Counted from the first letter of the stretch, positions 15,600 through 52,010 are shown. The stretch: DNA of 64,000 nt from Psammoneis japonica (GCA_008632985.1 QPGO01000003.1:248001-312000), one strand, 5' to 3'. Notes: a model not told the origin generated them from the letters alone. Program-made: numbers and translations.

Positions 15600-18500
15600 G
15601 AAAGTTCATCCACGACCTGACAACATCAAAACACATGGAACTGCTGCAGCGCTGCAGTGACGATGAGACACATCACTCATGCCATCAACTGCTTCTGCTT
15701 TGTATCACAATGTTGCACCATTGACCCTCCTCCACTAAACTCAAGCATCCACTCAGTTGGTACATTGGTGGAGGTGGCACCAGAACACCACAGGGGATGA
15801 CCCGGCAGTGAAGGCGGAACTGGCTTCATCGTGGGTTTCAACACTGCGAACAGCCAAGCAAATGTGCGGCACACAGCCCAGTCAATAACAGACTCAGTCT
15901 TGACATTGTCAGAAGGAGACTCTCTCCTGCATCATTGGCTGCAAGTGCTTGTTGGCAATCACCAAATGAAACTCAACGTCCATTGACATTGGCACAACAA
16001 ACAAGCTTGACTTGGTGGCATCAATGCTGGAAATGTGGCAGCAATGCAAACACAGCAAAGACTCAAAGGTGTTGCATGTTTTCTGTCACATTTGCAAGGT
16101 CTTGGGACTTGTGACAGCAGTGTTTGCTCCTGCCAAAAACAATTTTCAGAAAGGGGGGCATGTGTGCAAGGTTGACTGTGCTCGTGCCGGTAGAAAGGTG
16201 AGGACAAAGAAGGATTTGCTTTGTTGTGTGGGGGGGCTGATGTGACTTTTTGTTGTCCAAAGAACCCTGACAACTTGTTGCATCACAAGGGCAAGTGTTG
16301 CTTTGAGACTTGGGAGGTTGCTGGCTCAAATCTCAAATTCAGGGATGGAACAAAATCAAAAGTTTTCACACATGGAGCACTTCAACAATGTTCTTTTGGC
16401 AAAGATGGAAGCAGTTGCTTAGAGGGCAAAGAAAACAATGTGGGAAACCCAGCTCATGTTTGGTTCCAGTGGGACAGTGCAACACTGCATGCTGGCCGGA
16501 CACTCTTGGGCTTTCTTGGCAGCAAATTTGACAAATGTTCTTGAGAGCTTGTGCTGCATCACCCAACTCCCCACTCACTGATTTTGATGACACATGCTTC
16601 TTCTGGCAATGGCAAAGATGGTTGCCAAAGAGCAAGGGCTTGAACATGGTGGATGGCATTTGCAGGGGGGGCTGTGGGTGCATCACTTCATCCTCGTGTG
16701 TGTGATTTTCACCTGGAAGGGACAATTGCTTGGTCATTCATGCATCACAATCAAGCAGTGAATGCACTTTTTGAGTGGGGTGGATGGGATGATTTTGCAA
16801 AGGGCTTGCAAGCCCTTTGTTGTGGAGCCCAAAAGTTTTCACAGCATGTTCGTTTTGACTCAGAAAAGACAGAGTCCCACTGGAGTGGAAATGACTGAGC
16901 ACCTTGATGTGGTGGTCATGGACAATTGTTGCCTGCTGGAGGAAGTGCATTGGCACATTCAGCAACATCATGGAAATGACCAGAAGCAGCCATTTGTTGG
17001 TGCATCAAATGACTCTGTTGAGAACATTTCAGATGAAACCAAGTTTAATTCCAATGACATCAACGGAAATGATTGGTCATCAACAGTTTGACAATTGACC
17101 CAAGGTGTCACAATTTTCAAAACAATGCAGTTTAAGGGTGCAAATTCTGTTTGTGTTTTGAGCGTGTGTTTGTAAAAAGCATCAAACACAACTTGTGTTT
17201 TAATCATTTGTGATGCAATTCTGAAAAACACATGTCTCACAGTTTCCAAGCTCAGCACGCAAACAACACAACAATGGCAGAAATGCCACTTTCATTCTTG
17301 AGAACTCAGTGGGGTGTCTGGCACCTTTCTTCACAATGTGATTGGCTTTTGCACCATGAGCAATGATGTCACGAGAAAAGATCCTGGGCTCTGGGCTCCC
17401 CACCTCCACTGCATTCAGCTGGCGGAACTTTGGCCATTGTTGCACTGTTGGCCTGGTGACCTCACAACTTGCGCTGCAAGCCATTTGTGCATTTTTCCAC
17501 AACTCGTACACGGCTTTGTAAAACTCCATTTCATTTGAGTGGAAAAATCTAAAAAGACAAAAAGAGGGCCAAAATTGCACCCAAAACACCAAACAAGGGG
17601 ACTTGCAACCCCAAGCTTTTGACAGCACGGCTTCAGTTTTTGAAAGTTGCTTCAAGATTTTGCAATTTTTGACAATGTGGATTAAGACACTGACAACACA
17701 GCTTCAGATTTTGACAATTTGGAGGATGTCTCAAGCCAGCTTCTGGCCAGAGAATTTTGCGCAGAGTTTGCACTGAAAGAGCCTGCAAGCCAGTGCATTT
17801 GGGTGATTTGGCCAGCACTGCTGAACAGATGCAATGTCTTTTGGGTGTGCAAAAATTTTGCAGTTGTGCTGGCAAAACCCCCATTGCTTTGATGGGCAGA
17901 CATTGTCCAGCCAGAAGCTGGCTTGAGGATTCCCCCAAAATGCTTCAGTGCACAAAAACAGAAAATGAGGTGCAAAACCACTGAGACCATGAGCGGCAAT
18001 GGCACCTTTGCTGCTTGTGACAGGTCACTTTGTCAGCACAAAAGGCTGGCCTCATGTGGCTCATGCTGGCATTGAGTGTCTCCTCCCTTTGATGAGCTGT
18101 CATTCACATGTGGTTGCTCTTTGTCAACATGCAAGAGCTTGAAGGTTGAAAGAGGTTTTCGGAAAGTGTGGTTGTGAAGTCTTTCATGCACTCAAAAGTT
18201 GCACAAGTCACAAACTGACAGAAATGCTGTGATGGCACTCAACTCAGCACATTTCTTGGCCTTTTTTCTGTTTCTCCTTGTTGAGATTGACAAACTTTGC
18301 CAACTGGCACTTTTTTTGACAAATGTGTCTCAGCCATGGCTTGTGCCACGTTGCTGCTGATGCTGTGGCTGGTCTGCACAGCACACAATGCAAGATTTTT
18401 TGTGCCAAACAAACGCGATGTTGGAGTGTCCATTGCTGCAGTGGCATCTGGCAAATGACAGCAATTCACTTCTGATGGTGGATGAAAATCTGTTGTGAAT

Positions 18501-20150
18501 TTTGCACAAACAGCATCAAAGCACAATGAGTTTCTGCAGAGGCCAAAGAAAACAAACACCCCAGCCAAGTTCATTTTTTCTTGTTGCCACACCTGCATGA
18601 CTTTGCTCTTGCAATCTGTGTGACAGCTGGTTGATTGGCGCTGGAAGAAAAAAAACAAAGAACAAAACACATGGCAGCCCAACAGTCTGGTGTCAAAAAG
18701 CAACCAAAAGTTGTTGAGGCTCATGGCGGCACAGAGTGACACTTGGGTGTGATTGTCACACTTGCCTTGTCCATGCTGGACCATCATGTTGTCATCACAC
18801 ACTGTTGTTGCACTGGTGGTGTGCAAGATTTGCAATTGTGTCTTGAGCTCAAACTTTGTCACACCTGACAATTGCCCTGTTCTAGACCCATGAGAGGATG
18901 ACACCTGATTTTGACAAAATGGTCTGAGATCATGTCAAATCTTAAACTGCCCAGTTTGAGATTTGCAAATCACGAGTGTCAAAGATTTTGTGTTTGCAGC
19001 TTCAGAGTGGTGGGGAACAAGAAAAATGTCCAAAGGACATCATTTGGACAATGTCAGTCCATTTGAAAAAAGTGTCACAAACATTGTCAGACAATGTTCA
19101 GCTCCCGGCATGCTTGTCGGATTGTTTTTCAACCAGATGCACACAGATGAAATGACCAGGTTCAGTTGTTTTTGCAGTTCTCCTCTGCACAGCTTTGATG
19201 ACCCAGTTGTCTGTGATGCTCAATTGCACCCAACAGCTCAATGGGAGACAACAAAGTCATGAAATCAGCCACTCAAGCAAGAAAGGGGGGTTGAGTCATG
19301 CACTGTTGGCTTCATGTGGAGAAGGACCACCACCTGCACCAAAGCCAGATCCTGCACCATGTGCCAGCCAGTGTGGCGGTGACATCCTTGTCTGTCATGA
19401 GAACCCTCTCAACACCAGCTTCTGTTGTGCTGGAGAAAAAACAGGGGCAGCGGTCACTGCAACAAGTCACAAAGAGAAGCACTTGTTTTCATGAAAGTTG
19501 ATCTTAAAAACACCTGTGCAGGCAATGACAACAGCGCCATCACAGTGAGTGCTTGCAGGAAATCAACATGACAAAGATGCTGGCTTTTGTGAAGAGAGCA
19601 AGTCAGAGGGTCACACTTTGTTTGTGGATCAAGGTGGAGCCACACCTGCAGCAACTTCAGGGAGAGCAACAGCAGCAGTTGTTTGGCAGCTGTTTGAAAC
19701 AACAAGTCAGGGGAGATGTGCCTCAAGGTTGGCAGGATTCTTTCTTGTCATGGCACCACTCATCCTTCAATCTGCATGTGCCCCCATGCCACTTGAAGGA
19801 AAACAGATCCCATCCTTGCCTGTCCACATGAGTTTGCACTCAAAAACAAGCTGGACAATGAACTCTTTTGCAAGTGGTGGGTGCCATCAGTCAAGTCATG
19901 CCTGGCATTTTGAAGGAGCATGGCAAAGTGGCCAATCCATGCCCCAATGCTGATTCACATTCTCTGGAATGTTGCTTTGGCATTGAGGATCATGCAGTTC
20001 CAGTGCTGTGTTGTCTTGCTTGGCATCGGTCTTGTGGTCAGTGGATTGGCTAAATGGTGTTGGGATCATGCTCTTGGATTGCCCTTGGAATGACCCAAGT
20101 CGGCCATGCCAGAGTGGTTGTGGTCTCAAGTGAGTCAACAATCAGGGACA
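15600..20150. other. TpA/CpG-depleted degenerate domain
   Basis: Very few TA or CG, TG/CA-rich, no credible ORF; ends in the decayed citrate synthase copy. Confidence 0.75.
19785..20140 (+). pseudogene. Decayed 3' fragment of citrate synthase
   Basis: Aligns to ~10437-10795 (e.g. caagtcatgcctggcattttgaaggagcatggcaaagtggccaatccatgcccc vs caagtcatgcctgacattctaaaggagcatggcaaggtggccaacccatacccc); indels, stops, TA->TG and CG->CA/TG changes. Confidence 0.9.
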
Positions 20151-25499: not shown

Positions 25500-26848
25500 C
25501 CTCGTGCTCACAAATCATTGGCTTCTGAAATCCTTTCTGGGAAGCAGGCCAAACCTTTCATCGAGGGTTGATGTTTTCAAACACACCACTCCCACCCCCC
25601 TTGCCCATTGGTTGCTGGCACATTGTTGCCACACTCGACTTCCGCATCCCTTGAAGTGAAAGGATGCAAAACACACAACCTCCATGTCACAGCACCCTGC
25701 TGTTGTCATTGACAAATGGTGACACAAAGGAAAAGAGAGTGCACTGCCACAACCTGGCACTGGGCAAGCAACAGCACAAACACATCAAGGCAAGCTGCAA
25801 GAGAGTGGGGCATCACTAAGACTCAAGACAGCTGAGCATCAAAGAGGACACCACAAGGCACCACAGGATTGGCAGCACAAGAGAGTGCATCACATTGAAC
25901 AGCTTGATGATGCCGGCACCCCAAGAGTCGTGCAGGAGAGGGTGAATTGACTTGCACAAACAATCAGACAGGGGTGCAGAAAACTCAAAAAGCACAAGCA
26001 ATTAAGTGCAAACTTGTTCCCACAGCTTTTCAGACAGACTGCAAAATTCTATGTTGGCAGGAAAGAAGTTTGAAAGTTTGGGTTTGAGAATCTGACATTT
26101 TGACATGAAAGAGAGAGAGAGAGAGACAGAGAGAGCAAAAATCATCAATGCCATGTCACCATTGCCACATGACCCACATGCCCACAAGAGCAACAGCGAC
26201 AATGCCCCATCAGATGCCATGGGACAAAGTCAAACTCAAACCAGCCAGATGCTCCACAAAAACATCTTAAGCCCATGATGTTTGCTGTGCATGAGCTTGA
26301 AAAAATTGGCTGTGTTCATGACATGTCATCAGAAAATTTTCAACAGGGGCATGTCTCTTGTCAAGGCACATTTTCCCATGAGGTTCTTGGCTCCAATTTG
26401 TCAAGATTGCTGGTCTGGTGCAAGTCAAAATGGATCCAAGAACAAGAGCTGCAGCTTCCACTTTTCTCATGAAGGAGACAAAGCAGAGGAAAGCACCAGC
26501 AGCGCTTCTCTCCATTTTTCCAGCTGGGTGAAAAAACTGCTGGAGAGGCTTGTGATTTCACAAACAAGTTGGTGGTGTTGGAATTCCTTTTGCCAACATT
26601 TGCAAATGACAGCAGGTGAAAATTTTGTCTCCTCCAGCAGGACAATGCGCTGGTCTCTCAGGCATTCATGTGGGGGGCACTGCTTGTCTTTGCTGACAGC
26701 CAAGCACGTGGTGGTGCTTGGTGGTTTTGTCTTGATGTTGTGTGTAAAAAACAGCAGAAACAAGAGAAAGCAGCTGCTGACAAGTCAAAGACAGGGGCAA
26801 AACATGACACTTCACTGAGAAAACAAAGATGAAGACAGCAGAGCATGA
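25500..26848. other. TpA/CpG-depleted degenerate domain into which the copia element inserted
   Basis: Near absence of TA and CG; TA-poor sequence continues after the right TSD (33960 onward). Confidence 0.7.
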
Positions 26849-27124
26849 TGACAGGATTTGAACAGGATTTGGATGCGCGCGAAGTGTCGCGCGCTGTTTA
26901 GTTTACCGCGCACAGTTTTGTGTGCTTTAGTTCCGCGCGTTCACGCGCGATGTAGTTTGCTTTCGAGCCACAAGGCTCACAAGAATAATAACAGTAGCCC
27001 GATTATACCGACTTACCCGTCTTTCGGCTCCTGTAACGGTCTCTGAGCGGAGACTCATCTGCTATTTAGACAGCAGTAAGGAGTTATTGTTTGAATTCTT
27101 GCCATTTGCCTTCAATTTCTGTCA
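26849..27124 (+). repeat. 5' LTR
   Basis: tgacaggatttg...caatttctgtca; direct repeat of 33679-33954. Confidence 0.95.
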
Positions 27125-28063
27125 GATTAACAGTCTTGCTCATTGTCAACCCATTGAGCAACCGCCATCGTCGTCGTTGATTTACCAACGACGCTATTTC
27201 AATTCTACGTGGACCTCCGTATATATTCTACATACATCGGCAAGTCTACGCGCATTCAATACCAGGGCATCGGCAGGAAGTTAACGTCACCGTCAAGTCT
27301 CCTTACCGCTGGATATCTGGATTGATTATACTACCTTTGATCGCTGAAGACATACATTCAACGGTCATATCCAAGTCTATCCTTGATCCTCATCCCTTGA
27401 TATACCTATTCATCGGTTAACGGTCAAGAACCCTACATATTCAAGGATCTTCGTCGCTGAAGACATGTGTGTGTGTGCACATCTTCACGGCCAAGAACCT
27501 GTACCCACTCTTCGGACTGCGGTTTTGCCACCACTCTACAAGCACACCGAGTCCATTGCACCTGATCTACCCCGGACTGCTGGTGCTCTACAGTTCTGCT
27601 AGGTCCACGAGGACGACTGTGAGAGCAAGCAGCCGTGATTGCAACCCACATTGGGGCGAGGGTGCTTTCCCGCGTTTGTTCGTTCGTCCACAGCGCCTGA
27701 CGCCTGCGTCAACTGGCCAGCCTGATCGGGAAATCCAACCGACATAAAATAAGAACGGTTCGGGGGTCTTGTCCACCTCTAGTCAGCTCACCTGCAGGGG
27801 TTTGCAACCCGCTGCTCCGCTCGCAAGCAACCCAAAGCGCCACCAGCTGCGGGTTTGGACGTGCCGGCACAACTCTACGGACCGGACAGGAAGTTTAGCA
27901 CTCAACAACGAACGGGACAACAAAGCCCGGCGACTTCTGATTTTAAGACAGCTCAAGATTTCAAGTCAAGTCTGTTTCAAGTCAAGCCTGTTCTCACCCA
28001 AGTTTCGAGTCTGCCTTCGCTTCCCAACCCGAATTGATTGTCCTGACACCACTTTCATCTACC

Positions 28064-31000
28064 ATGGTTCTCACTCGTCAGCAACAAACCGATGGTTTCG
28101 AGCACGTTGTTGGAACCGTGCTTGCCCAAGGTGCTGGGAGTCCTCTTCGTTCAGCTTTGGCCCAAGACGGCATGGACTCGCATCAGGAACCATTCACGTT
28201 CATGCCGTCCCAAATCGACTCGCTTGAGTGTGACAACGGCACTGATGCAATCCCTTTGCCCCGTGGTTATGAGAACATGTTAGCAGCACTGGTCAGCCTG
28301 TGCATTGTCAAAGCACACAAGGGTCTTGACGTTGCCAACGACTCCTCTTTGTTCGCGCATGACGAGTTCCTTGCCTGCCGCCTCAGCCCGGACTGCATGT
28401 CCTCTGTGTCCATCGGCAGCTCACCCCTTGCACCTCCACATGTCACCAACCCGACCAAGGCACGCGACCCGGTGCGAGACTTCAAGCGAGGCATCAAGCG
28501 TGATCCCACCGCTTTCACGGCTCTCAAATCCGACAAGCAGTGGCACACTTGGCACACCTCACTTGTGGCACAAGCCCGTGCCCAAGACGTCGAGTGCATT
28601 CTAGACTCGTCGTACAAACCGACCAGCCCCGAAGACAAACTGCTCTTCACTGAACAGCAAAAGCACATGTTCGCCGTCTTCGAACGCATCCTTCTCACCG
28701 ACAAGGGCAAGGCTCTCATTCACGAAAATGTGGGGTCTTCTGACGCACAGACCGTCTGCCGCTCCTTGTCTGAGTGCGCGCTTGCCTCCACCCGTGCATC
28801 CATCGAGTCCTCCACCCTGCTCATGCACCTCACCACCGCACGTCTTGGTGATGGCACTTGGAAAGGCCCGACCCACGGGTTCATCCTTCATTGGCAAGAT
28901 CAGTTGCGCAAGTGCGAGGCGCTCGTCCCTGCCAGTGACCACTTCTCTGAAGGACAGAAGCGCGTCATGCTCGAGAATGCCGTGCACCCTGTCGAGGAAC
29001 TCCGTGCTGTCAAGAACCAAGCTGATCAGCGCCGCACGCAGAGTGGCAAGAGCCTCACATACGATCAACACTGTGGCTTGCTCCTCTCCGCGGCAGCTCA
29101 GTGCGACAGCACGTTTCAACCCAAGACGACACCCAGAGCTCCCCGACGCGCCATGTGCGCACACGACGTCTGCTCCGAGGAACCGTCCGACGATGTGTTC
29201 TACGACATTGACAGCGATGTTGACGTCCTTCAAGCCAATGCTGCCTGCACCCGCGGTCCCAGCCTCACCGGTGTCCAATGGAGACGTCTCCCTCCCGACC
29301 ACCAACGGCTCTGGGATTCGTTGCCCGATTCCTCCAAGGCGATCATCCTTGAGCATTCTCGTCCGCCTCCCCGCAACCCGCGAGCCAGCAACTGCCATGA
29401 GTCTGTTACGGCCAACCTTCACGACCAACACCTTGGGAGTGACGGTGATGTCAACTTGTCCAACACGACTCCTGCTGACTGTGGTGACCCCGCTGCACAT
29501 GTGGACGCCACTTCGGACAATCCCATCCTGGCGCACCTCACCAAGCGCAAGCCACTGCCACCCGGTGATCTGCAACGTCTGTTGTCTCCTAACCAAGCCC
29601 CCAATGCCAGTCGACCGGGGCCATCCGCCGCTTCCTCTACCCCGCCAGCTTCTGCAGATAACACAGAACTTAACGGCCGCACTCACCGCCGCGTTGACAA
29701 CCACAATGTCATTTGCTCTGCCTCTGCTCATCGCTCCACACGCACTGGCGCTCTAGTCGATCGTGGGGCCAACGGCGGCATTGCTGGCGACGACGTTCGC
29801 GTCATCGCACGCACCTCTCGCCAAGTCGACGTTCAGGGCATTGACGATCATCAATTGGTGGACACCCCCATTGTCACCGCTGGTGCTGTCATTGAGACCC
29901 AGCGTGGTCCCGTCATCGCCATCCTCCATCAGTGCGCATGCACGGGAAAGGGCAAGACCATCCATTCCTGCGGCCAGCTCGAATGGTGCAAACAGGATGT
30001 CAACGATCGCTCTGTCAAGGTGCCCAACGGCTTGCAACGTATTGCCACTCCTGATGGCTGTGTCATCCCCATTGACATCAAGGCTGGCCTGCCTTGTGTT
30101 GCCATGCGACCTTACACTGACGCCGAATGGGACACCCTGCCCCATGTCATCCTCACCGGTGATGACACATGGACCCTTCCGTCCTCGATCACTCTGTCAC
30201 TGACGACGACCAGTGGTGCGACGCGATCTCTGACCTGCAGGACGATCCCACTGCCAACCTGTTTGACGAATGCGGCAACTGCCGTCACCGTGTCGTTGTC
30301 AACGAGACCATCTTGTCCGCTTCCTTGTCTGCCGATCACGCATCCGCCCTCGATGATCACCTCATTCCGAACGACGACGTGTTCTGCGAGTGTCATCTGC
30401 ATGCGATTGACCCCCAGGGCGATGACGTTCCACCTCCGGAGCGCACTGTACAGCCCAAGGACCCCCCCTTCGAGTCTCTTCGGCCTTGCTTTGGCTTCCT
30501 ACCTGCCGATGCGGTCCGTCGTACTTTTGACTGCACCACGCAGCACGCCCGCATGCCCGCCGGTACACACCTTCGCAAGGCCTGCAAATCACCCAACCCC
30601 GCCCTCAATGTGCACCGCCGCAACGAGCCTGTCGCCACTGACACCGTTCATGCCGACACCCCGGCCGTCGACTCTGGTTGCACCAGCGCCCAACTGTTTG
30701 TTGGCACCGCGTCTGCCGTCACTGACGTCTGCGGCACTAAGACGGACAAAGAGTTTGTCAACACACTCGAGGATCAGATCCGTGAACGTGGTGCCCCATC
30801 CAAACTCATCAGCGACCGTGCTCAAGTTGAGATCAGCAACAAAGTGCTCGGGATCCTGCGCACCCTCTTCATCTCCAGCTGGCAAAGTGAGCCTCACCAG
30901 CAACACCAAAACTTTGCCGAGCGTCGATGCCAGACCGTGAAGCGCGTGGCGAACACTGTCATGGACCGTTTTGGTTCGCCCGCCCACACATGGCTGCTGG

Positions 31001-33731
31001 CGCTCATGTGCGTGTGCTTCATGCTCAACCACACAGCGTCCCCACGTCTCCACTGGCGCACGCCCCTCGAGACTCTCACTGGATCCACCCCGGACATCAG
31101 CCCATTGCTTCGCTTTCACTGGTGGGAACCAGTGCACTTCCACCTCGATGATTCCGATTGGCCGTCCGAATCCCGTGAGTTGCGTGGACGCTTCGTTGGC
31201 ATTGCTGAGCACGTCGGCCACCAGATGACCTTCAAGATCCTATCTGACGAGACTCAGAAGATCCTCTGCCGGTCCAACGTTCGCTCCGCTGCCCCCGATC
31301 CTGCCGTTCGAAACCTGCGTCTTGATCCTCCTGATGGGAGCCACCTGAACCCATCATCAAATCTCGCCATGACGACAACCCCGTCGATTCTCCTGATGGG
31401 GAGATCAGGACACCCAAGATGCCAGTTTTCGATCCGCAAGACATCATTGGACGTACCTTCCTCATGCAGCCACAAGAGGACGGACAACGCCACAGAGCTC
31501 GCATCGTCAAGGCCGTCGAAGACCACGAATGGAAAGTGAACGGCAATCCCGAGCTCACCAAGTTCGTCTGCTCTGTCAACAATGACGAATACGAGGAAGT
31601 CCTTGCCTGCAATGACATCATGAATCACATTGAGCAAGAAGACGAAGACACCACCATTTGGAAATTTCGACGCATCGCATCACACGAAGGACCTCTGAAG
31701 CCTCACGACCCAACCTGGAAAGGCTCAAGCTACAACATCATGCTTGAATGGGAAAGTGGGGAGATCACGTCCGAGCCTCTTGCCATCATCGCCAAGGACG
31801 ACCCCGTCACCTGTGCCATCCATGCACGAGAGAACGGACTCCTAGACACGGATGGCTGGAAGCGGTTCCGCACTATCGCGAGGCGCCAAAAGAAGCTATT
31901 TCGCATGGCCAACCAAGCCAAGCTTCGCTCCTTCCGCACTGCACCTCGCTACAAGTGCGGATACAAAGTTCCCCGGAACTACAAACACGCCATGTCACTG
32001 GACGAACGCAACGGCAACCGCAAGTGGGGAGACGCAACTAATCTCGAGATGGACCAACTCGATGAATACGAAGTCTTCCATGACTGCGGGCCCTTCAAGT
32101 CTTCCACTCCTCCTGCGGGACACAAGAAGATCCGAGTGCACCTGGTGTTCGACGTGAAACACGACGGTCGCCACAAGGCACGACTCGTAGCCGACGGGCA
32201 CCTCACGGACGTACCTGTCGACAGTGTCTGCTCGGGAGTAGTCTCCCTCCGTGGCCTTCGGCTGATGATTTTCCTGGCCGAACTCAACGAGCTGGAGACA
32301 TGGGCCACCGACATTGGCAATGCCTGCCTTGAAGCCACCACCAAGGAGAAGCTTTACATTGTAGCTGGACCCGAATTTGGCAAACTCGAAGGACACATCC
32401 TTGTCATCCACAAGGCACTGTATGGACTGCGCAGCTCCGGTCTCCGCTGGCACGAGCGCTTCGCCGACTGCCTGCGAGCTGAAGGCTTCTTCCCCTGCCG
32501 CGCCGAACCCGACATTTGGATGCGCAGGAACGGCAACCACTGTGAACACATTGGCGTTTATGTGGATGACCTCGCCATTGCCATGAAAGACCCTCAATCT
32601 TTCATCGACACTCTCACGGAAAAGCACAAGTTCAAGCTCAAGGGTGCAGGACCCATTGAGTTCCATCTGGGTTGCGACTTTTCCCGGGACCCCGACGGAA
32701 CCTTGTGCCTGTCTCCGCGCAAGTACATCGAGCGCATGGTCGACAGCTGCACCCGATTGTTTGGGGAGAAACCTGCCACCAACGCCCTGTCACCTCTAGA
32801 GAAGGGTGACCACCCCGAACTGGACACTTCCGAACCACTGGGACCCGATGGCATTCACAAGTTCCAGTCTCTTGTTGGTTCACTCCAATGGGCAGTGTCC
32901 CTTGGTCGAATTGACATTGCCACGGCTGTCATGTCACTCTCTAGCTTCCGAGCTGCACCCCGTCAAGGCCACTTGGATCGTGCCAAACGCGTCTGTGGGT
33001 GCCTCTCCAAGATGCGACACGGTGCTCTCCGCGTTCGTACGGAAGAGCCCGACTGTTCGGATCTCCCTGCTCCGGCCTGTGAATGGATGCATTCCGTGCA
33101 TGGTGAAGCAGAAGAGATGGTCCCGAAGGACGCTCCACCGCCCCTTGGCAAGTTCGTCACTGCCACCCACTACGTCGATGCAAACTTGTGCCATTGCATG
33201 CTCACCGGACGCTCTGTCATGGGAATGCTCCACTTCCTCAACAAATTCCCGGCTGATTGGTTCTCCAAGAAACAAGCCACCGTGGAGACTGCAACCTGCG
33301 GATCTGAATTTGTTGCCGCAAGGAATTGTGTTGAGCAGATTGTCGACCTGCGCATCACCCTGCGCTGCCTTGGCGTCCCGATCCGTAATGTCAGTTACAT
33401 GTTCGGTGACAACAAGTCGGTTGTAGACAGTGCCACCATCCCGCACTCCAAGTTACACAAGCGACACACCGCACTGTCGTTCCACCGTGTGCGTGAGGCA
33501 ATTGCCTCTGGTTACCTTGAGTTCCACTTCATCGAAGGCTCCCGCAACCCTGCTGACATTCTCAGCAAGCATTGGGGTTGCTCCCAAATCTGGGACCTTC
33601 TCCGCCCCCTCATGTTCTGGAACTTCATCCCATCCGAAGTCGAATCTGTTTCTGTAGCTCCTCAAGCAAACTGGGGAGTGACAGGATTTGAACAGGATTT
33701 GGATGCGCGCGAAGTGTCGCGCGCTGTTTAG
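28064..33731 (+). pseudogene. Copia gag-pol polyprotein, Tyr-depleted, with frameshifts near 30175 and 31350
   Basis: Protease LVDRGANGG; integrase DTVHAD/SDRAQVE/HQNFAER; RT VFDVKHDGRHKARLVA and YVDD; RNase H DNKS and NPADILSKH. Confidence 0.9.
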
Positions 33732-33954
33732 TTTGCCGCGCACAGTTTTGTGTGCTTTGGTTCCGCGCGTTCACGCGCGATGCAGTTTGCTTTCGAGCCA
33801 CAAGGCTCACAAGAACAATGACAGTAGCCCGATTATACCGACTTGCCCGTCTTTCGGCTCCTGTGATGGTCTCTGAGCGGAGACTCATCTGCCATTTAGA
33901 CAGCAGCAAGGAGTTGTTGTTTGAATTCTTGCCATTTGCCTTCAATTTCTGTTG
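33679..33954 (+). repeat. 3' LTR (hypermutated at TpA)
   Basis: Direct repeat of the 5' LTR with 11 internal substitutions plus the terminal dinucleotide. Confidence 0.95.
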
Positions 33955-34381
33955 CATGATGAAAAGAGGACGGGCAATTTGCGGGGACTCACACAGAGGA
34001 GTCGAGGAACTGGTGGCAAACGTCCACCACGCAAACGTCTCTATTCTCTGTTCGTAAAATGGCTTCACTGCATGGAATCAACGAGGAAAAATTCAAAATG
34101 ACCCCATCCATCCTGGTCCGCGGTCACGCAAAATGTTTTTGGTTGACTGACTCGCACAGACCATTTTGGAAATTTGTGCAAACAGGGGAATGTGGGTTTC
34201 ACTGCACGACTCACTCACCAACCCCTGTAGGATTGTACGCAATTCCGTATGTGAAGTGTGATCGCGGTTATGGTGTCGAGTGAGTCTTGCACGTACCTCT
34301 TGCCTAACGTTTCGTCCATTTCAACTCTTTCCTACTTCTACTTGTCTGACGATGCTCGAATACGTCTAAAAAACAAACGTG

Positions 34382-36951
34382 ATGAACAGTGATAATCAGA
34401 AAGACCATCGTGAAGAATGCGGCAGGACTGAACAAGGTGTAAACGAGCCAACGAATGCCCACGCCAACAACAGGACGGCGAAGAAAAAGAAAAGTCATAC
34501 ACGACGAGGCGAGCAAAATCATGAGGAAAAAGAAGAAACAAATGAAGAGCACGCATCGACCAAACGCTCTTTTACGAGCAACGAGAAGAAAGGCCGACCA
34601 GGAAAAGATCGAAAAGGAGAGGAGATTATCGAAGAACAGCGCGTCGACCCGGGTGTTGCGGTCACGGAGGAACCACTCGTACCACCCGAAAAGCTTTCTG
34701 CAGTCGGCCAACGCCAAGCAGTTCGGCGTGAGGCTCTTTACGAATACACCGAGACACAAAGCTCACATTTGAAAATCAATCCATTATCGACGCCTTCTTC
34801 TTCGAGCAGTGATAACGACAAGCCCGTGTTTCTGGAAAAACGCCAAGTGTTTCGCAGCGGGAATGAGCATTTTTTGGATGAACAATATGAAAAATTAGAC
34901 TATACTGCTGACGAGAAGAAATCAAAATATCGCACTCACCGAGATGAGTTGTTGATACAAGATACAGCGGAGTCAAAAAAGAAGAAAAGAAAAATTCGTC
35001 GTGCTACCAGACAGAAGCAAGTAAGAGAAGAAGAAGAAAACATGGAAGTGCAATCTCGTGTAGATCCAATTCTTGCTCTCTGGTTGGTGACTCAAACATT
35101 GTATCAGAAACGGAGGAACGGCTAGTATCACCCGTCGGGGCTTTTGCAGTCAGCCAACGCCAAACAACTCGACGTTCTGTTCGTCATCAAGATTCCGAGA
35201 CGCAATGGTCAGATTTGGAATCCGTTCATTCTAACCTGTCTTTATTGTCGTCTGTGGCTCCTTTTCAAGATGGCGGGATACCCGTTGGGGCTTTTGCGGT
35301 CAGCCGTGGCCAAGCAACTCGACGTTATGTTAGTCGTCAGGATTCCGACACGCAATGGTCAGATTTGGAATCCGTTCATTCTAACCTGTCTTTATTATCG
35401 TCTGTGGCTCCGCTTCAAGATGGCGGAACTCCAATGCTTTTGGAGGCACAGCTGGCACGGCCGGTTGAAGATCTCGAAGCTGAATTGTCTCGTCGACAAG
35501 CCGAAGAAATGCAGGGTCTGCAGACAGAGATTGAGGATCTTCGTCAGTCACAGCTATCGAATCTCCCGCTCGCACATGCAGAAGTGACAAAAGGGATCCA
35601 GAAAAGGAAGCGACTGCTGATGTTTTGTATAATGTCATTGGTTGTAGCTGTCATGGTTTTCGTTGCAGTAATCGTTTCAACCCAGCAACGGACAGAATCA
35701 CCAACCAACGCTCCAACGACGGGTACTCAAGTCGTATTGAATAGAACGTGGAGTCAGGTTGGACAGGATCTTGCCGGAGAAGCGCCCGAAGACCAATTTG
35801 GCATTTCTCTCTCTTTATCGCGTGACGCAAGAGTCATGGTCGTAGGAGCAACTCAAAAAAAGTTAAAAGGCAACACTCATGGTTATGCGTCGGTCTTTCA
35901 ACTAGAAAAGGCAACCAATTCTTGGACACGCAAGGGCCAAGTTCTGATTGGAGATGAACGCCAAGACCTTTTCGGCATGTCGGTGTCGCTGAATAGTGAT
36001 GGAACGATTCTTGCTGTTGGGGCACTACAGAAGAGAGATAGAGATGGTATATCAGATGCGGGCTATGTTCGAGTGTACGAGTACAATGTGGTCACCGAAA
36101 AATGGGACCAACTTGGAAAGACGATGAGAGGAGACGCAGTTGGCGATGAATTTGGTACTTCTGTTTCATTGTCCAGTGCGGGAGACACTCTAGTGGTTGG
36201 AGCAAGGAGGGCCGACACCAGTAATGGGATCAGTTCTGGAATAGTTCGAGCATTTCGCTACAACCGTGGGACCTTGTCGTGGGTACAACTTGGCCAGACA
36301 CTTGCTGGTCAAACAGAATATGATCTTTTTGGTGAATCCGTGTCCTTAAGCAGTTCCGGCTCAATTTTTGCTGCCGGTGCACGTTCAAGTGATATAGGAG
36401 GAAGAAATGCTGGTCTGATAGCCATGTACAGATACAATTCGACATCGGCAATGTGGCTGCTGATGGGTGAAACCATCAGTGGGGAACCTGGAGGCTTGCT
36501 TGGAAGTTCAGTTTCTCTTAGTAGTAACGGGATGATTGTTGCCGCGGGTGCGCCAGGATCAAGTGATGGGAGGGTTTTGAGTTATGAATATGACGTTGAA
36601 ACGTCAACATGGACACAACGGGGCCAAACCCTAGAGACCCAACAACAAGGCGATGACTTTGGTGGTTCTGTATCGTTGAACGGAGAAGGAAATATGCTGG
36701 CAGTAGGAAGTCGTTTTCACAATGCCGGTGGGTTAACGAATTCCGGCCAAGTTGTCATCCTAATATATGACATTGACGCTGAGGAATGGCATCAGTTGGG
36801 TGAAGGTTTGTATGGTGAAGCTTCAGAAGATCGGTTCGGACATTCAGTGTCGCTCTCTGGCAATGGAACCATTGTAGGAATTGGTTCAAGTGGGAGCTAT
36901 CCCAACAGTAATAGCTCGGGATCAGCGTACACATTCAAAATGATTGAATAG
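34382..36951 (+). CDS. Type II membrane protein with extracellular FG-GAP beta-propeller (apparent frameshift near 35080)
   Basis: Charged low-complexity N-terminus, TM (LLMFCIMSLVVAVMVFVAVIVS), about 7 repeats of DxFGxSVSLS...LAVGA; the frameshift is inferred from the paralogue (GDSNIV...SPVGAFAV). Confidence 0.8.
35131..35430 (+). repeat. Tandem 150-bp intragenic duplication
   Basis: cccgtcggggcttttgcagtcagcc at 35131 and cccgttggggcttttgcggtcagcc at 35281. Confidence 0.9.
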
Positions 36952-47899: not shown

Positions 47900-50800
47900 G
47901 GTTTCATCATTGGATCTACCGGCTGAACATCCAAGAGCACAATTTCCACCGGTTCATTAGGCCCACATCTCAGGCCACAACTTGGCCATCAGGAGTCCCA
48001 ACATCTAACCCAACATTTTGTCCAACCCTGTTGTTGACGTCTGTGACTGTGTTGAGACCAACAGTTGCTCCAACAATGCAGCCATAAAAACCTCCAGCTG
48101 CAACACCAACAAGTCACCCAACCTCTCAACCAACGGCAAAACTGACAATGCTCCATGCAAAACCCATCACAATTGCACCATCCATTTCAGCAAAAGTCCA
48201 GCTGCTGCCAAATGCAGTTGACAGGGGCTGCAAAAAGTCCACCAAAGCTGGATGGCCATGCTCAACAAATGTGCAGTGCAAGACAAACACATGTTGAAAT
48301 GGAGTTTGCGTGTCATCGTCTGCTTGCTGTCCAGTGAAGCACAAGTTTGGGACTCAGTTTCACAAACACAAAATCAACATTGTCTTTGTTCCATCAGCAT
48401 TTTCCTTGGTTGGTCACAAGGCCTTGCATGATCAGGTCAACAAGACACAAAGATTCATGCAAAACTGCAACATCTTTGCTGAAGAGATCAATGAGCTGGG
48501 GTGCAATGGCATTGATTGATTGTTGTGGTGAGAGGTTCTTTGATGCATCTTTGCAGCTTCTTTTGAGCATCTTTCTTCTCACATTTCTTCTCATCTTTCA
48601 TTCATCATTTTCAGCTGCAATGTTCAATGCACCCACAATTTGGCCAGCAAATGCTTCCCTGTTGGAACCAATCTTCAAACTGTCATTGTTCACAACTCAA
48701 AGCAATGTGCTGGTGGCGCAGGATGCACTGACGTGAACATTGCTGTGGCAACAATGCATCCTGCAGCCCCTCTTGCATTGGCACATGAGCTTGGTCACTC
48801 GCTCTTTGAACTGACGGATGAGCACTCTTGTGGAGACGGAAATGGCAATGAACCAAATTGTGATGACATGTCATGTGACAAATGGTCGGATCTGATGAAA
48901 CAAAAGAACAGGCCACAAGGTCACACTGGAGTGCAATGCCTCCCAGGATGCAAAATTGGTGACCACTTTGTTGGAGGCAGGACCTTCATGAACAACCTGA
49001 GTGCTCCCATTGGAGCAGTCAATGAAAGGTTTAGTTGCTGCACACATTTGTCATTGACTGAGGTTTTTCCTGCCTGTTGTCATGTCTTTGACCCCTCCTC
49101 AAATTTTCTCTTGAACTGCTGCTGCAAGAGGGATTGCAAAAACCATGGCACCTCCAACTGTGAAAGCAAAGATGCTCTTGCCATGCCGGGTTTCATTGAC
49201 AAAGACAAGGCCTCTGGAAAATGCATGCAAGAGTCTGACCCTGCAATGGTGACAATGTTGTCCAAAGTGAAACGCTCAGGAGCTGCCGCATTCTGAACAA
49301 CACGGGAACCATCAGAGCTGAGCATGTTTCTAAAGTCCAAGGTTGGTGGCGGTTTTCCCAATCCAAAAGCTGCAGCAAAGAAGGGAGTGAAATCCTTGCT
49401 GAAAGTCATGGCACAACACAGACAAGAAGGAAAAGAGACTGTTTGTTTTTTGAGGAGCACAACCATCAATTGTGCTGTGGTTTTTGAACATTTGTCAGTT
49501 GTCAGCCACTGCTCTCCAGCTCTTGCGAGCATTCACAGCTCACACTGGCAGCTGCTTTTCAGGAACACTGACACAAAACAGATCCAAATGAAACGTTGTC
49601 AAAGACATTGTTGATGGCCTGCACCCAAGCAAACAAACACAATGACAAGATCTTCAGGGCTTGTCACTGACCTTGTTGCCAACTGCTGTCAGCTTGGTGA
49701 CCAAAGAAAACAAGGAAATGGACAAAACTGCAGGACACACAACAATGACACAAGACTGGCTGAACAAAAAGAAAACCATGGAAAACAGACTGACCCAATG
49801 GTGAATTTGTGGGGGGGCTGTGAGAAAAATCATCTGCATGCAAACCTTGGCCACATCACGAAGACTGGACTTGCTTCACAGATCAACCATCATGTGGGGG
49901 GTGATGCAACAGTGGTGAGAGCATTGACGTGAGGTGGTGCAAACATTGCAAGTCTGGTGGTGGCATTTTCTTTTAGTTTCTCCCAACAAGTTGCTGGGGT
50001 CTCCACTCTGTTCAGGTGGACACTGTGGCTTTTGCATCTTGTTTTCTGCAAGCAAGATTTCTCCACAAGATTTCTCCACACAGTCAACCAAAATGACCAT
50101 GTGGAGAAATGTCACGACCCTCGTGAAATGATCAGGCTTGTCTGCACGCAAGAAGCTTCTGCAAAAATCTGAGAATGTGAGCAGCAGCAACAGCCCACAA
50201 ACAAAGCAAGTGGCACAAAGCACAAAAAACTGCAGGTCGGATCCAGAGCTTGGTGTGTGCACAGGCAGCTCTCTTTCTCTCTCTGCAGATCTCCAAGCAC
50301 AAAAAATTGACATTGCAACAATGACAGTGGCTTTGCCAATGAGCAACATCACAGAAAAAACTCTGTGTGCTGTGATCTTGAGGAGTTTTGCATGCCACCA
50401 CAGTGTGGAAATGATTGTAAAAAAAGAACTTGCACATGAGCACACACATCTGTTCTCAACTGAAATGCCAGCCCAGCTGGCCCAGCGCTGTGACCAAACA
50501 ACCTGGTTGTTGAGATGGAACAAAGCAGCCAAATGAAAGCACACGCAGTGCCAAAAGTCTCTTGCACCTGCTGCAGCACCTGCTGTCACTCTTTTGCCAG
50601 CAGCGTCTGTTTGCACTTTGTGAGAGAACAGCCTCATTCACAAATTCTGCTCCGTGTGCTTGAACAAAGCATCAAATGCCCACAAAGCTGCCAAGAAGTG
50701 CTTTCATCTTTGTGCAAAGACAACATGTCTGTCATAAAAAAGTGCAAGCAATGTGGCAAGCCAGACATTCACCAGCAACATGCAAAGAATGGACCAAAAC

Positions 50801-52010
50801 AAAGCAGGCAGGAAAGCCTTCTTTTGCAATGACCATCAAGGTTGCTTGAAGTGAGGACATTGCTGGCAAGCTTTCAAGGCAAAAATGACCAGGCTGCATC
50901 TGGTGCAATGAGTTTGGGTGCTGCTTTTGGGAAGCTGGCTGTGGCACTTGGAGGAAGAACAAACATCTCATCAAGTGTTGAAGCTCTGCTCACAAGCTCT
51001 TTTTGACAACAATGGCTGGGTGCTGCTTGCACCCAGGCATGACTGCACTCTGTGGCAAGCAAAAATTTCATCCTTCTTGAAACAAGGTCTCAAACACAAT
51101 GTGTGTGTTGATCAAAAGATGGCTGCTTGAGTTGTGTGTTTCTTTTTCACATGGCCGCTGGATGAGCGACAACCCATTTGAAAAAAAATCAGCACCAACC
51201 GTTGAAAGTGTTTCTGAGCATCGCAAGTGGGTTGCACTGCCGTCCATTGTTTCACATGTGACACAGTGTTTTTTGTGTGAAAAGAGAAAAAAGCTTTGAA
51301 AGAAGTTGAGACATTGTGGCACAAAGGTTGGCTGCACCTGAGATCATTTTTTCAATTCTTTGCAAGTTTGTGTCAGGGCTCTTTGGGAGATCATGTTGCC
51401 AGCAGCCGCTGCAACTAGCAGAAAGCAGCAAAAGCAATCACAGCTGATGCGCCCCAGCTCCAGGTGGGGCCTCATGCTGCTGCACACTGTGGCAGGAGAG
51501 TTTTTTGACAACACGTGCTGAACATCGGAGTGATGCATTTTTTGTGAGCAAAGCCAAAGGCTTCTCATTGCAACCATTTGTTGTGATGCAACAAAAGTCA
51601 CCTGGGCATTTTCTTCAATGTCTGAAGAAAATGCCCTGGCAAAGCAAGAAATGATGCCAGCTTTGAGCGCAAATGAGAGAGTGCACACACACGTGCTGTT
51701 TGCAAAATTGTCTCTTTCTGTTGGTGATTGTCAATGCATGCACCTCCCAACAATTTTGTTGCAGAGCTTGTGTGTGGAATTCTGTGGGCCCAATGCCACA
51801 CGGAGCCCCGCCTGGGGCTGGAACACGCCAGCAACTGGTTTCTCTTCTCTCTGAGTCGCCGCCAACAAGGTGGGGGGAGCAAAAAGATGACAGAAAATGC
51901 ACAGAGTGCAGTGCAGCCCCAGCACATTTGGGAGCATGGCCACTCCCAACATGGGAGGTCTGGAGCACGATGTCTTTCCTAGATGTGAGGAGAAAAAATG
52001 CACAACATGG
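47900..52010. other. TpA/CpG-depleted degenerate domain (includes the M64 pseudogene)
   Basis: Near absence of TA and CG; TA returns abruptly at ~52010. Confidence 0.75.
47930..49440 (+). pseudogene. Third M64 peptidase paralogue, hypermutated
   Basis: Colinear with 122..2221 from the PT linker to the C-terminal domain; HELGHSLFELTDEH; stops, deletions, no Tyr codons in 48640-49296. Confidence 0.92.

What the first reader, a model, noticed from the sequence alone, without database searches (positions are those of the whole stretch)
26849..33954. LTR pair as an internal control: 10 of 11 internal differences are TA losses, all in the 3' LTR
LTRs are identical at insertion. The 5' LTR has 15 TA dinucleotides and 10 are changed in the 3' LTR (6 to TG, 4 to CA; e.g. 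gtttaccg->gtttgccg, tgtag->tgcag, gaataata->gaacaatg, gctatt->gccatt). Only 1 of about 21 CpG changed (aacgg->gatgg) and no other site differs internally. The mutation is therefore post-insertional, on both strands, far faster than background and context-specific. LTR-divergence dating would be invalid in this genome.
Basis: seen in the sequence. Interest (0 to 1): 0.9.

Follow-up and report, generated by a model that had tools for sequence, protein, structure and literature searches.

The report
TA-specific hypermutation in a diatom retrotransposon
One end of a jumping gene in a diatom genome has lost two thirds of its TA steps to TG or CA while its twin end kept them, which points to a fast, locally aimed DNA-editing process so far reported only in one unrelated alga.

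Summary
The two 276-bp LTRs (26849-27124, 33679-33954; 5-bp target duplication) differ at 11 internal sites. Ten are TA in the 5' LTR against TG (6) or CA (4) in the 3' LTR; one is CG against TG.

The family state at these 11 sites could not be read, so the direction rests on indirect evidence, which agrees in three outgroup tests:
- In this element's own pol, 6 of 24 conserved Tyr codons survive; 15 are now Cys or His codons.
- Two host pseudogene pieces lost 0-of-17 and 0-of-15 kept TAs against intact paralogues and diatom orthologues.
- The TA-poor zone runs from about 27450 through the 3' LTR and 273 bp into host DNA.

The host is a diatom. About a third of the non-element window lies in blocks almost free of TA and CG. 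The same TpA-to-TpG/CpA signature was measured directly in Bigelowiella natans in a 2026 preprint. I read this as a new member of that kind, aimed by position rather than by homology.

Caveat: the family has over 1000 copy-equivalents, and no contig laid was shown to support the LTR bases.

The parts
26844..26848 (+). Left copy of the 5-bp target-site duplication
   Evidence: Same five bases as 33955-33959
26849..27124 (+). 5' LTR, 276 bp, TG...CA ends with a 6-base terminal inverted repeat; 15 TA, 21 CG; TA o/e 0.82
27125..27946 (+). Leader. TA is dense up to 27438 (26849-27438: 40 TA, o/e 0.94), thinner in 27439-27600 (o/e 0.46) and sparse beyond
27947..30165 (+). Open frame for the gag and protease region; no Pfam hit; TA o/e 0.15, CG o/e 0.89
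30166..31334 (+). Integrase-region frame, shifted by a missing G at 30170 relative to about two thirds of family depth. All 4 conserved Tyr are lost (2 Cys, 1 His, 1 Phe)
   Evidence: (table 4)
31335..33731 (+). Reverse transcriptase and RNase H frame (RVT_2, E 3.8e-28), shifted by a missing G at 31335 relative to about half of family depth. 6 of 20 conserved Tyr kept; 9 Cys, 3 His, 1 Trp, 1 Phe
33679..33954 (+). 3' LTR, 276 bp, preceded by a purine-rich tract; 5 TA, 20 CG; TA o/e 0.32; last two bases TG instead of CA
33955..33959 (+). Right copy of the target-site duplication
27450..34227 (.). TA-poor, CpG-normal zone: element body, 3' LTR and 273 bp of host flank. The flank holds 2 TA; only 0.66% of 1370 normal 273-bp host windows have 2 or fewer
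25500..26848 (.). Older block that abuts the 5' LTR and is almost free of both TA (5) and CG (10) in 1349 bp
15900..20130 (.). TA- and CG-free block (14 TA, 31 CG in 4231 bp). Its right end is a citrate synthase pseudogene piece (19784-20135) with three in-frame TGA
47950..52000 (.). TA- and CG-free block (10 TA, 45 CG in 4051 bp) holding a degraded Peptidase_M64 copy (48245-49293)

Best explanation
A Ty1/copia-type LTR retrotransposon of a very high-copy diatom family inserted here with identical LTRs. Afterwards a DNA-level process turned 5'-TA-3' into TG or CA, a transition of the A on one strand or the other. It acted on a bounded stretch of about 6.8 kb: most of the element body, the whole 3' LTR and about 270 bp of host DNA. 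The 5' LTR and the first ~330 bp of leader lay outside it.

The two LTRs began with the same sequence yet fared differently, so the process is aimed by position (a chromatin or transcription domain, inferred), not by sequence homology. The same process, followed more slowly by CpG-to-TpG/CpA decay, has run to completion in older non-genic blocks of the window, which are now almost free of TA and CG.

The chemistry is inferred, not shown. The likeliest route is enzymatic deamination of adenine to hypoxanthine in TpA, as proposed for Bigelowiella natans. A modified thymine in TpA that mispairs with G would leave the same footprint, because TA is its own complement.

Shown: the pattern, its direction in three polarised cases, and its regional limits. 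Inferred: that the LTR differences arose after insertion in this copy, the domain targeting, and the enzyme.
For: LTR pattern:
- 10 of 11 internal differences are TA (5') against TG/CA (3'), P = 2.3e-9.
- Both outcomes occur (6 TG, 4 CA), so both strands are hit.

Direction:
- In this element's pol, 6 of 24 conserved Tyr columns are kept: 11 Cys as TGY, 4 His as CAY, 1 Trp, 2 Phe. Of the other conserved columns, 341 of 363 and 118 of 124 are kept. Outgroups were 67 of the 120 listed relatives and 22 long ones.
- Peptidase_M64 triple: TA shared by two intact paralogues is kept in 0 of 17 sites of the block copy (8 TG, 6 CA, 3 other). Shared CG is kept in 1 of 6. Other shared dinucleotides are kept 44-89%.
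- Citrate synthase piece: 0 of 15 TA kept (9 TG, 2 CA) and 1 of 18 CG kept (8 TG, 6 CA). 24 diatom orthologues side with the intact copy at all 7 changed Tyr codons.

Regional limits and timing:
- TA o/e is 0.94 in 26849-27438, 0.20-0.22 in 27601-33678, 0.32 in the 3' LTR and 0.12 in the 273-bp right flank, then 0.51.
- TA retention is similar across the zone: 5 of 15 in the 3' LTR, 6 of 24 Tyr codons, and 2 TA in the flank where normal windows average 10.4.

Controls:
- Relatives' pol TA o/e has minimum 0.32 and median 0.71 (79 loci), against 0.25 here.
- In 7 terminal-repeat pairs of relatives, 11 of 73 differences are of TA type, 6 against 5 by side.

Precedent: a mutation-accumulation experiment in B. 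natans found 230 of 231 new mutations in two integrated viral regions to be A-to-G or T-to-C, all on TpA, at about 6e-7 per site per generation. It also found 124 TpA-poor clusters (bioRxiv 10.64898/2026.01.13.699255; outline, Results and Discussion read).
Against: - The states of the 11 LTR sites in other copies were not seen. One search lists 40 of 381 variable places and none of the 11; searches found no other LTR.
- The family sums to 5e4-2.5e5 depth against about 60 for the flanks. Base-level assembly of one copy could therefore mix copies, and no listed contig bridges a flank into an LTR.
- Among the 40 visible places, none shows the whole family carrying TA where this copy has TG/CA. 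TA alleles at such places reach 7-51% of depth. Part of the body's TA loss may therefore predate this insertion.
- Short repeats inside the LTR give one hint for TA and one for TG as the older state.
- Why the zone starts inside the leader is unexplained.
- CpG is untouched in the element (o/e 0.87-1.04) but erased in the older blocks, so two processes, or one with two rates, must be assumed.
Confidence: 0.78

Rival explanations
1. Mixed ancestry of the two ends. Either the 5' LTR plus leader (or the body plus 3' LTR) was overwritten by gene conversion from another family member, or the assembly or polishing of this >1000-copy family joined bases of an edited and an unedited copy. TA-to-TG/CA editing would still be real in the family, but this LTR pair would not be a clean internal clock.
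For: Family depth is about 1000 times that of the flanks, and TA/TG/CA polymorphism at 7-51% of depth occurs in the leader and gag region. No listed contig ties the LTR bases to the unique flanks. The TA-rich part is one contiguous stretch of about 600 bp, a plausible conversion tract.
Against: The 5-bp target duplication is intact, which argues against recombination between elements. The TA-poor zone continues 273 bp into single-copy host DNA, which copying from another element cannot explain. The flanks agree with independent contigs at 898 of 899 bases (1 and 0 other letters, table 8).
Confidence: 0.13
2. A RIP-like process ran the other way: C-to-T at CpA (and G-to-A at TpG) created TA in the 5' LTR and leader, while the 3' LTR keeps the original state.
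For: The raw pattern is symmetric and, taken alone, looks like light fungal RIP. RIP indices of the 5' LTR are TA/AT 1.07 and (CA+TG)/(AC+GT) 1.06, against 0.38 and 1.53 for the 3' LTR. One internal LTR repeat fits TG as the older state at 26929.
Against: All three outgroup-polarised data sets in this window show TA loss, none TA gain. Where the block copy and one intact paralogue share CA or TG (166 sites), the third copy has TA in only 5. The TA-rich part has near-neutral composition, like the relatives, while the TA-poor part is the outlier. The host is a diatom; in two full-text searches that named diatoms none of the listed titles or abstract openings reported RIP in a diatom (listings only, no paper opened).
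Confidence: 0.04
3. Editing before integration. A deaminase edited the RNA or the reverse-transcription intermediates. Because the 3' LTR's second strand is copied last, edits ended up in the 3' LTR only.
For: From established retroviral reverse transcription (recalled, not tested here): the minus-strand LTR template is copied twice at different times, so late damage could mark the 3' LTR only. Conserved Tyr codons changed to Cys codons (TA to TG on the sense strand) 11 times against His codons (TA to CA) 4 times, a mild sense-strand bias.
Against: Both strands are hit about equally in the LTR (6 TG, 4 CA). The depletion extends into 273 bp of host DNA that was never reverse-transcribed. The same signature saturates host pseudogenes that are not retroelements.
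Confidence: 0.03
4. Selection rather than mutation: TA is avoided in this element and in the blocks for a functional reason such as RNA stability, stop-codon avoidance or DNA structure.
For: TA is under-represented in most genomes (established knowledge). Even the gene-bearing parts of the window have TA o/e of about 0.4-0.7.
Against: The changes destroy nearly invariant Tyr residues of RT, RNase H and integrase and create in-frame stops in the citrate synthase piece. Two LTRs with the same function differ.
Confidence: 0.02

Closest known systems
TpA-to-TpG/CpA hypermutation of integrated viral DNA in Bigelowiella natans (Mettrop et al., bioRxiv 10.64898/2026.01.13.699255, 2026)
   Same: The dinucleotide rule is identical: only TA, giving TG or CA according to strand. 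Both are clustered in regions of kilobases, leave TpA-poor and CpA+TpG-rich clusters as a long-term footprint, are far above background, and have targets that include reverse-transcriptase-bearing sequences (Results read).
   Different: That case is a chlorarachniophyte (Rhizaria); this host is a diatom. There the evidence is new mutations in culture; here it is a footprint only. There the regions still hold 3.3% and 9.2% TA; here old blocks are at 0-0.8% TA per 500 bp. The paper has no occurrence of CpG, LTR, retrotransposon or diatom. Here CpG is co-erased in old blocks, host pseudogenes are hit, and an LTR pair shows that identical sequences 6.8 kb apart fare differently.
Repeat-induced point mutation (RIP) of Neurospora and other fungi
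   Same: A context-specific burst of transitions on both strands that degrades mobile and duplicated DNA, ruins reading frames and makes LTR dating unusable.
   Different: RIP changes C to T, mostly at CpA, and so creates TA and lowers GC. Here TA is destroyed and GC rises (LTR GC 0.475 to 0.507). RIP marks both copies of a duplication by homology. Here one LTR of a pair, and one paralogue of two or three, is hit.
CpG decay by deamination of 5-methylcytosine in methylated DNA (vertebrates, plants; transposon methylation in diatoms, recalled)
   Same: A self-complementary pyrimidine-purine step is converted to TG/CA in silenced DNA while protected islands keep it. The spared 5' LTR and leader resemble a CpG-island-like escape. 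CpG itself is lost in the old blocks.
   Different: The fast target here is TA, not CG: 10 of 15 against 1 of 21 in the same LTR. Methylation was not measured here, and I know of no eukaryotic base modification tied to TpA decay (recalled, not searched).
ADAR (A-to-I, 5' U preferred) and APOBEC3 (C-to-U) hypermutation of retroelements
   Same: Deaminase-type transitions with a neighbour preference. ADAR's preferred U-A context matches TA.
   Different: Those enzymes act on RNA or single-stranded cDNA before integration. They give one-strand bias and identical LTRs, and ADAR is a metazoan enzyme (established knowledge). Here both strands, host flank DNA and non-retro pseudogenes are affected.
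Diatom Ty1/copia-like retrotransposons (CoDi elements; name recalled, not checked in a paper here)
   Same: RVT_2 reverse transcriptase, integrase before RT, TG...CA LTRs and a 5-bp target duplication. The nearest Atlas clusters are from Bacillariophyta.
   Different: No member above 72% protein identity was found in the collections, so this family is not represented there. This copy has two frameshifts and has lost 18 of 24 conserved Tyr.

Membership tests
TpA-to-TpG/CpA regional hypermutation (B. natans type) | Changes fall on TpA only and give TpG or CpA | tested here: met
   10 of 11 internal LTR differences. 14 of 17 and 11 of 15 polarised TA sites in pseudogenes turned to TG/CA. 15 of 18 lost Tyr codons are now TGY/CAY.
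TpA-to-TpG/CpA regional hypermutation (B. natans type) | Direction is AT to GC (TA is the ancestral state) | tested here: met
   Outgroup polarisation in three data sets. Not tested at the LTR sites themselves.
TpA-to-TpG/CpA regional hypermutation (B. natans type) | Confined to regions of kilobases with rates orders of magnitude above the rest | tested here: met
   The zone 27450-34227 and six blocks have sharp TA-free stretches up to 1495 bp, against a median TA spacing of 19 bp. TA sites changed 10 of 15 against 1 of 244 other bases in the LTR.
TpA-to-TpG/CpA regional hypermutation (B. natans type) | New mutations observed in real time (mutation accumulation) | not testable with these tools
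   Only a footprint is available. No time series or parent-offspring data.
TpA-to-TpG/CpA regional hypermutation (B. natans type) | Targets are foreign or silent DNA | tested here: inconclusive
   Targets here are a retrotransposon and non-genic blocks with pseudogene pieces. Of 66 block ORFs, 1 has a credible Pfam hit. Expression and chromatin state were not measured.
TpA-to-TpG/CpA regional hypermutation (B. natans type) | Candidate ADAT2-like DNA adenine deaminase in the host | not testable with these tools
   No whole genome is held for this window.
Fungal RIP | C-to-T at CpA that creates TpA and lowers GC | tested here: not met
   The polarised changes destroy TpA. 5 TA gains in 166 shared CA/TG sites.
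Fungal RIP | All copies of a duplicated sequence are marked by homology | tested here: not met
   One LTR of two and one paralogue of two or three is changed.
Ty1/copia LTR retrotransposon | RVT_2 reverse transcriptase with integrase upstream of it | tested here: met
   RVT_2 E 3.8e-28. The integrase-region frame 30166-31334 aligns to the N-terminal part of long relatives, 118 of 124 conserved non-Tyr columns kept. No Pfam rve hit was obtained for it.
Ty1/copia LTR retrotransposon | Direct LTRs with TG...CA ends, 5-bp target duplication, polypurine tract before the 3' LTR | tested here: met
   The 3' LTR end reads TG instead of CA.
Pre-integration deaminase editing (ADAR/APOBEC type) | Single-strand bias, and edits confined to reverse-transcribed sequence | tested here: not met
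   6 TG against 4 CA in the LTR. Depletion extends into the host flank and into host pseudogenes.

The most novel reading that the evidence does not exclude
Diatoms possess a position-guided (chromatin-domain, not homology-guided) DNA-editing defence that deaminates adenine in TpA on both strands. It can strip a newly inserted retrotransposon of most of its TA steps while the insertion is still young. With slower CpG erosion, possibly by the same dual A/C deaminase, it turns about a third of the non-genic DNA in this window into sequence free of TA and CG. If the B. natans system is the same, this would be an ancient genome-defence mechanism shared across SAR algae. It would also give TpA scarcity, long attributed to selection (recalled), a mutational cause.
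Probability: 0.35. Interest if true: 0.92.

Novelty: new member of a known kind. Interest (0 to 1): 0.8.

Why it matters
1. It would be the second lineage, and the first diatom, with TpA-specific DNA hypermutation. So far this is known from one 2026 preprint on a chlorarachniophyte. Five full-text searches listed no other paper whose title or abstract opening reports it. Only the preprint was opened, so the absence rests on listings, and each listing showed only part of its hits (for example 12 of 293).

2. The LTR pair is a natural experiment. Two identical sequences in one element fared differently, so targeting is by place rather than by homology. That narrows the mechanism and separates it from RIP.

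3. It gives relative rates within one locus: TA sites 10 of 15, CpG 1 of 21, other bases 1 of 244.

4. Practical consequences in such genomes:
- LTR-divergence dating is inflated about tenfold (4.0% against 0.41%).
- Repeat and pseudogene annotation by similarity fails in edited blocks; 65 of 66 block ORFs have no credible family.
- Dinucleotide-based inferences about selection on TpA need revisiting.

Tried and rejected
- Whole genome: none is held, so LTR pairs genome-wide and deaminase genes could not be searched.
- Family state at the 11 LTR sites: read laying printed 40 of 381 variable places and none of the 11. Contigs that fit both LTRs may have been laid on the better-matching one, so nothing can be concluded from that absence.
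- A degenerate 25-base LTR pattern found 0 stretches in metagenome contigs, 0 in viral contigs and 1 in genome contigs. That one is a 26-base chance match in a cyanobacterial contig with no further similarity.
- The protein collection holds no member of this family. The best pol identity among the 120 listed hits is 70% (72%), so a search with LTR-encoded frames was not attempted.
- Short repeats inside the LTR as an internal outgroup gave one site favouring TA and one favouring TG: inconclusive.
- Block content: Pfam on 30 and then 66 ORFs gave only the Peptidase_M64 remnant and one sub-threshold HAT-repeat hit.
- Host taxonomy: the Atlas with citrate synthase was uninformative. A 'longer' protein search missed normal-length orthologues. 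The 'near' search settled it.
- Gag/protease region: only 12 conserved columns and no Tyr among them, so no test there.
- Earlier notes of this scan held nothing on this genome. The listed phage findings on CA/TG or TpA bias are unrelated.
They may hold CpG or retrotransposon details that the main text lacks.
Full report
WHAT IS THERE

The interval is a 7.1-kb Ty1/copia-type LTR retrotransposon.
- It has two 276-bp LTRs (26849-27124 and 33679-33954), an identical 5-base target duplication on either side, and a purine-rich tract before the 3' LTR.
- Three overlapping open frames are separated by two frameshifts. The last frame carries RVT_2 at E 3.8e-28.
- The nearest protein clusters come from Bacillariophyta.
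- A host gene 17 kb upstream, citrate synthase, is 83-90% identical to named diatom orthologues (Nitzschia, Asterionellopsis, Mayamaea, Conticribra, Fistulifera). The host is therefore a diatom.
- No whole genome is held for the window.

THE OBSERVATION

It holds exactly as written.
- The LTRs differ at 13 positions: 11 internal and the last two bases.
- Ten of the 11 internal differences are TA in the 5' LTR against TG (6) or CA (4) in the 3' LTR. The eleventh is CG against TG.
- TA counts are 15 and 5; CG counts are 21 and 20.
- Only 30 of 276 bases lie in a TA. The chance of 10 of 11 differences falling there is 2.3e-9, and 10:0 one-sidedness has P = 0.002.
- Divergence is 4.0% with TA bases and 0.41% without them.

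DIRECTION

- The family is enormous. Summed contig depth is 5e4-2.5e5 over the element against about 60 on the flanks, all from one sample.
- A degenerate LTR pattern found no other copy in three collections.
- The protein collection holds no relative closer than about 70%.

I therefore polarised the process elsewhere.

1. The same element. I aligned the RT/RNase H frame with 67 of the 120 listed relatives (57-66% identity).
- 20 columns have Tyr in at least 80% of relatives. This copy keeps 6 and has Cys (TGY) at 9, His (CAY) at 3, Trp at 1 and Phe at 1.
- 341 of 363 other conserved columns are kept.
- In the integrase frame, 0 of 4 conserved Tyr are kept (2 Cys, 1 His, 1 Phe), against 118 of 124 other columns.

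2. A block at 47950-52000 holds a degraded copy of two intact tandem Peptidase_M64 genes.
- Where both intact genes share TA (17 sites), the block copy keeps none: 8 TG, 6 CA, 3 other.
- Shared CG is kept in 1 of 6. Other shared dinucleotides are kept 44-89%.

3. The right end of a block at 15900-20130 is a copy of the 3' part of citrate synthase.
- 0 of 15 TA are kept (9 TG, 2 CA, 4 other) and 1 of 18 CG (8 TG, 6 CA, 3 other).
- It has three in-frame TGA codons.
- 24 diatom orthologues agree with the intact gene at all 7 changed Tyr codons.

There is no sign of the reverse change. Where the block copy and one intact paralogue share CA or TG (166 sites), the third copy has TA in 5.

The pol region of this element has TA o/e 0.25. 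That is below all 79 metagenomic relatives (minimum 0.32, median 0.71). The 5' LTR plus early leader is at 0.94. The TA-poor part is thus the derived outlier.

WHERE IT ACTED

| Stretch | TA |
|---|---|
| 26849-27438 | dense, 40 TA, o/e 0.94 |
| 27439-27600 | thinning, o/e 0.46 |
| 27601-33678 | sparse, o/e 0.20-0.22 |
| 3' LTR | o/e 0.32 |
| first 273 bp of right flank | 2 TA, o/e 0.12 |
| from 34228 | back to 0.51 |

- Only 0.66% of 1370 normal 273-bp host windows have 2 or fewer TA.
- CpG stays normal throughout this zone.
- TA retention is alike in the 3' LTR (5 of 15), at conserved Tyr codons (6 of 24) and in the flank (2 where normal windows average 10.4). This fits one exposure of one domain after insertion.
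- The extension into host DNA argues against editing before integration and against simple copying from another element.
- The last two bases of the 3' LTR read TG where the 5' LTR has CA. Other copies also end in CA (loose-end consensus, table 7).
- A C-to-T change that creates TA, followed by fast TA-to-TG, would explain this. It would also explain the six CA (this copy) against TG (family) doublets among the visible rows.
- At one doublet (32836-7) the relatives' Leu fits a TA-containing ancestor better than a CpG one (consensus).

THE WIDER WINDOW

The element is not a special case.
- Six blocks total 18,434 of 56,894 non-element bases: 6900-8600, 15900-20130, 25500-26848, 42400-44000, 47950-52000 and 58500-64000.
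- They are complex, non-repetitive sequence almost free of TA, and mostly of CG too, with CA/TG at 1.7-2.0 times expectation.
- TA-free stretches reach 1495 bp, against a median TA spacing of 19 bp.
- The gene-bearing parts between them keep TA o/e near 0.4-0.8 and CG near 1. They hold Peptidase_M64, citrate synthase, subtilase, amine oxidase, GH72 and FG-GAP proteins.
- The blocks form a series:
  - the element: TA mostly gone, CpG intact;
  - 58500-61000 and 7000-8500: TA gone, CpG 0.4-0.9;
  - 16000-20000 and 48000-52000: both gone.
- This suggests that TA loss is the fast step and CpG loss the slow one. It matches 10 of 15 against 1 of 21 in the LTR.
- Of 66 ORFs of 100 residues or more in the blocks, only the M64 remnant has a credible Pfam hit.

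WHAT IS KNOWN

Full-text searches turned up one directly relevant paper: Mettrop et al., bioRxiv 10.64898/2026.01.13.699255. I read its outline, Results and Discussion.
- In a mutation-accumulation experiment with the chlorarachniophyte Bigelowiella natans, 231 of 302 new nuclear point mutations fell in two integrated viral regions.
- 230 of those were A-to-G or T-to-C, and all of them lay on TpA. The rate was about 6e-7 per site per generation. Only some lines showed it.
- The genome also holds 124 TpA-poor, CpA+TpG-rich clusters, and reverse-transcriptase domains are enriched among TpA-poor genes.
- The authors propose an ADAT2-like DNA adenine deaminase.
- The main text never mentions CpG, LTRs, retrotransposons or diatoms. 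Its supplements were not available to me.
- Four further searches listed no other paper whose title or abstract opening reports this signature, and none for diatoms. Apart from the preprint I judged them by listing only, and each listing showed only part of its hits.

CONTROLS IN RELATIVES

- Of the 79 metagenomic loci with related elements, 41 were at least 5.5 kb and were scanned for terminal direct repeats; 17 had one.
- I dropped 6 pairs with no mismatch (probably assembly overlaps), 2 long duplications and 2 pairs below 90% identity.
- In the remaining 7 pairs, 11 of 73 differences are of the TA type, 6 with TA in the first copy and 5 in the second.
- The pattern is therefore not a general property of such LTR pairs.

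MECHANISM

Shown:
- a TA-specific transition on both strands, in the direction TA to TG/CA;
- confined to bounded stretches;
- much faster than CpG decay and than all other changes.

Inferred:
- It acts on integrated DNA.
- It is aimed by position rather than by sequence, because two identical LTRs fared differently.
- The escaping 5' LTR and leader behave like a protected promoter island.
- Chemistry: adenine deamination in TpA is my first choice, about half of the probability I give the main explanation. A modified thymine at TpA that mispairs with G is the main alternative. The two cannot be told apart from sequence, because TA is self-complementary.
- CpG loss in old blocks may be ordinary 5-methylcytosine decay in the same silenced domains, or a second activity of the same enzyme.

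WEAKNESSES

- The LTR sites themselves are not polarised.
- No read or contig ties the LTR bases to this copy in a family of more than 1000 copy-equivalents.
- Part of the body's TA loss may be inherited, since among visible rows TA alleles at this copy's TG/CA sites reach only 7-51% of depth.
- Internal LTR repeats give conflicting hints.
- Gene conversion or a polishing chimera between an edited and an unedited copy would leave the process real, but would spoil this pair as a clock.

VERDICT

It is best filed as a new member of the TpA-hypermutation kind just described in B. natans: a diatom host, retrotransposon and pseudogene targets, saturation, and CpG co-erosion. The added insight is that targeting is positional.

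Noticed in passing
window 6900-8600, 15900-20130, 25500-26848, 42400-44000, 47950-52000, 58500-64000: Six blocks of complex sequence almost free of TA and largely of CG, with CA/TG at 1.7-2.0 times expectation. Together they make up 18,434 of 56,894 non-element bases. The genes between them keep normal TA and CG.
   Followed up: partly
window 19784-20135 and 48245-49293: Pseudogene pieces of citrate synthase and of Peptidase_M64 lie inside blocks. Tyr codons are turned to Cys or His codons, Arg CGN codons to TGN or CAN, and the citrate synthase piece has three in-frame TGA. The homology continues about 300 bp past the block edge at 20130, so the block boundary does not follow the duplication boundary.
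   Followed up: yes
window 25500-26848 versus 33955-34300: The TA- and CG-free block on the left ends exactly at the insertion site, while the right flank has normal CpG from its first 20 bases. Either the element landed on a block boundary, or the element affects where blocks end. Unexplained.
   Followed up: no
window 26851 and 33954 (table 8): The single-copy flank contigs of run X1 stop at 26851 and start at 33954 with 21 unlaid letters. These are the points where a filled and an empty site would diverge. This hints that an empty-site allele exists in the sample, that is, a young heterozygous or polymorphic insertion. Not verified.
   Followed up: no
window 30170 and 31335: This copy lacks a G that 66% and 50% of family depth carry at these two places (table 4). 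These are exactly the two frameshifts between the three pol frames.
   Followed up: partly
window 27844-5, 28152-3, 28191-2, 28648-9, 29069-70, 32836-7; 27123-4 versus 33953-4: Adjacent double differences: CA in this copy against TG in 34-100% of family depth, and CA in the 5' LTR against TG in the 3' LTR at the LTR end. This is expected if TA is a short-lived intermediate or ancestor that resolves either way.
   Followed up: partly
window 26849-33954 (table 2): The family is extremely abundant in the only sample that holds it. Summed contig depth is 5e4-2.5e5 against about 60 on the flanks, and 338 of 376 variable places are transitions.
   Followed up: partly
L011, L004, L006 (metagenome contigs): A few related elements from other organisms have pol-region CpG o/e 0.21-0.28 with TA o/e 0.42-0.48 and CA/TG about 1.5. 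These could be milder or different decay regimes in other diatoms.
   Followed up: no
L001:401-425: A 26-base identity between the start of the LTR and a cyanobacterial genome contig, with no similarity beyond it. Taken as chance.
   Followed up: yes
window 14551-15091, 35130-35426, 45811-46160, 56571-57044: Tandem repeats of about 270, 150, 78 and 150 bp inside coding-looking regions. Not examined.
   Followed up: no
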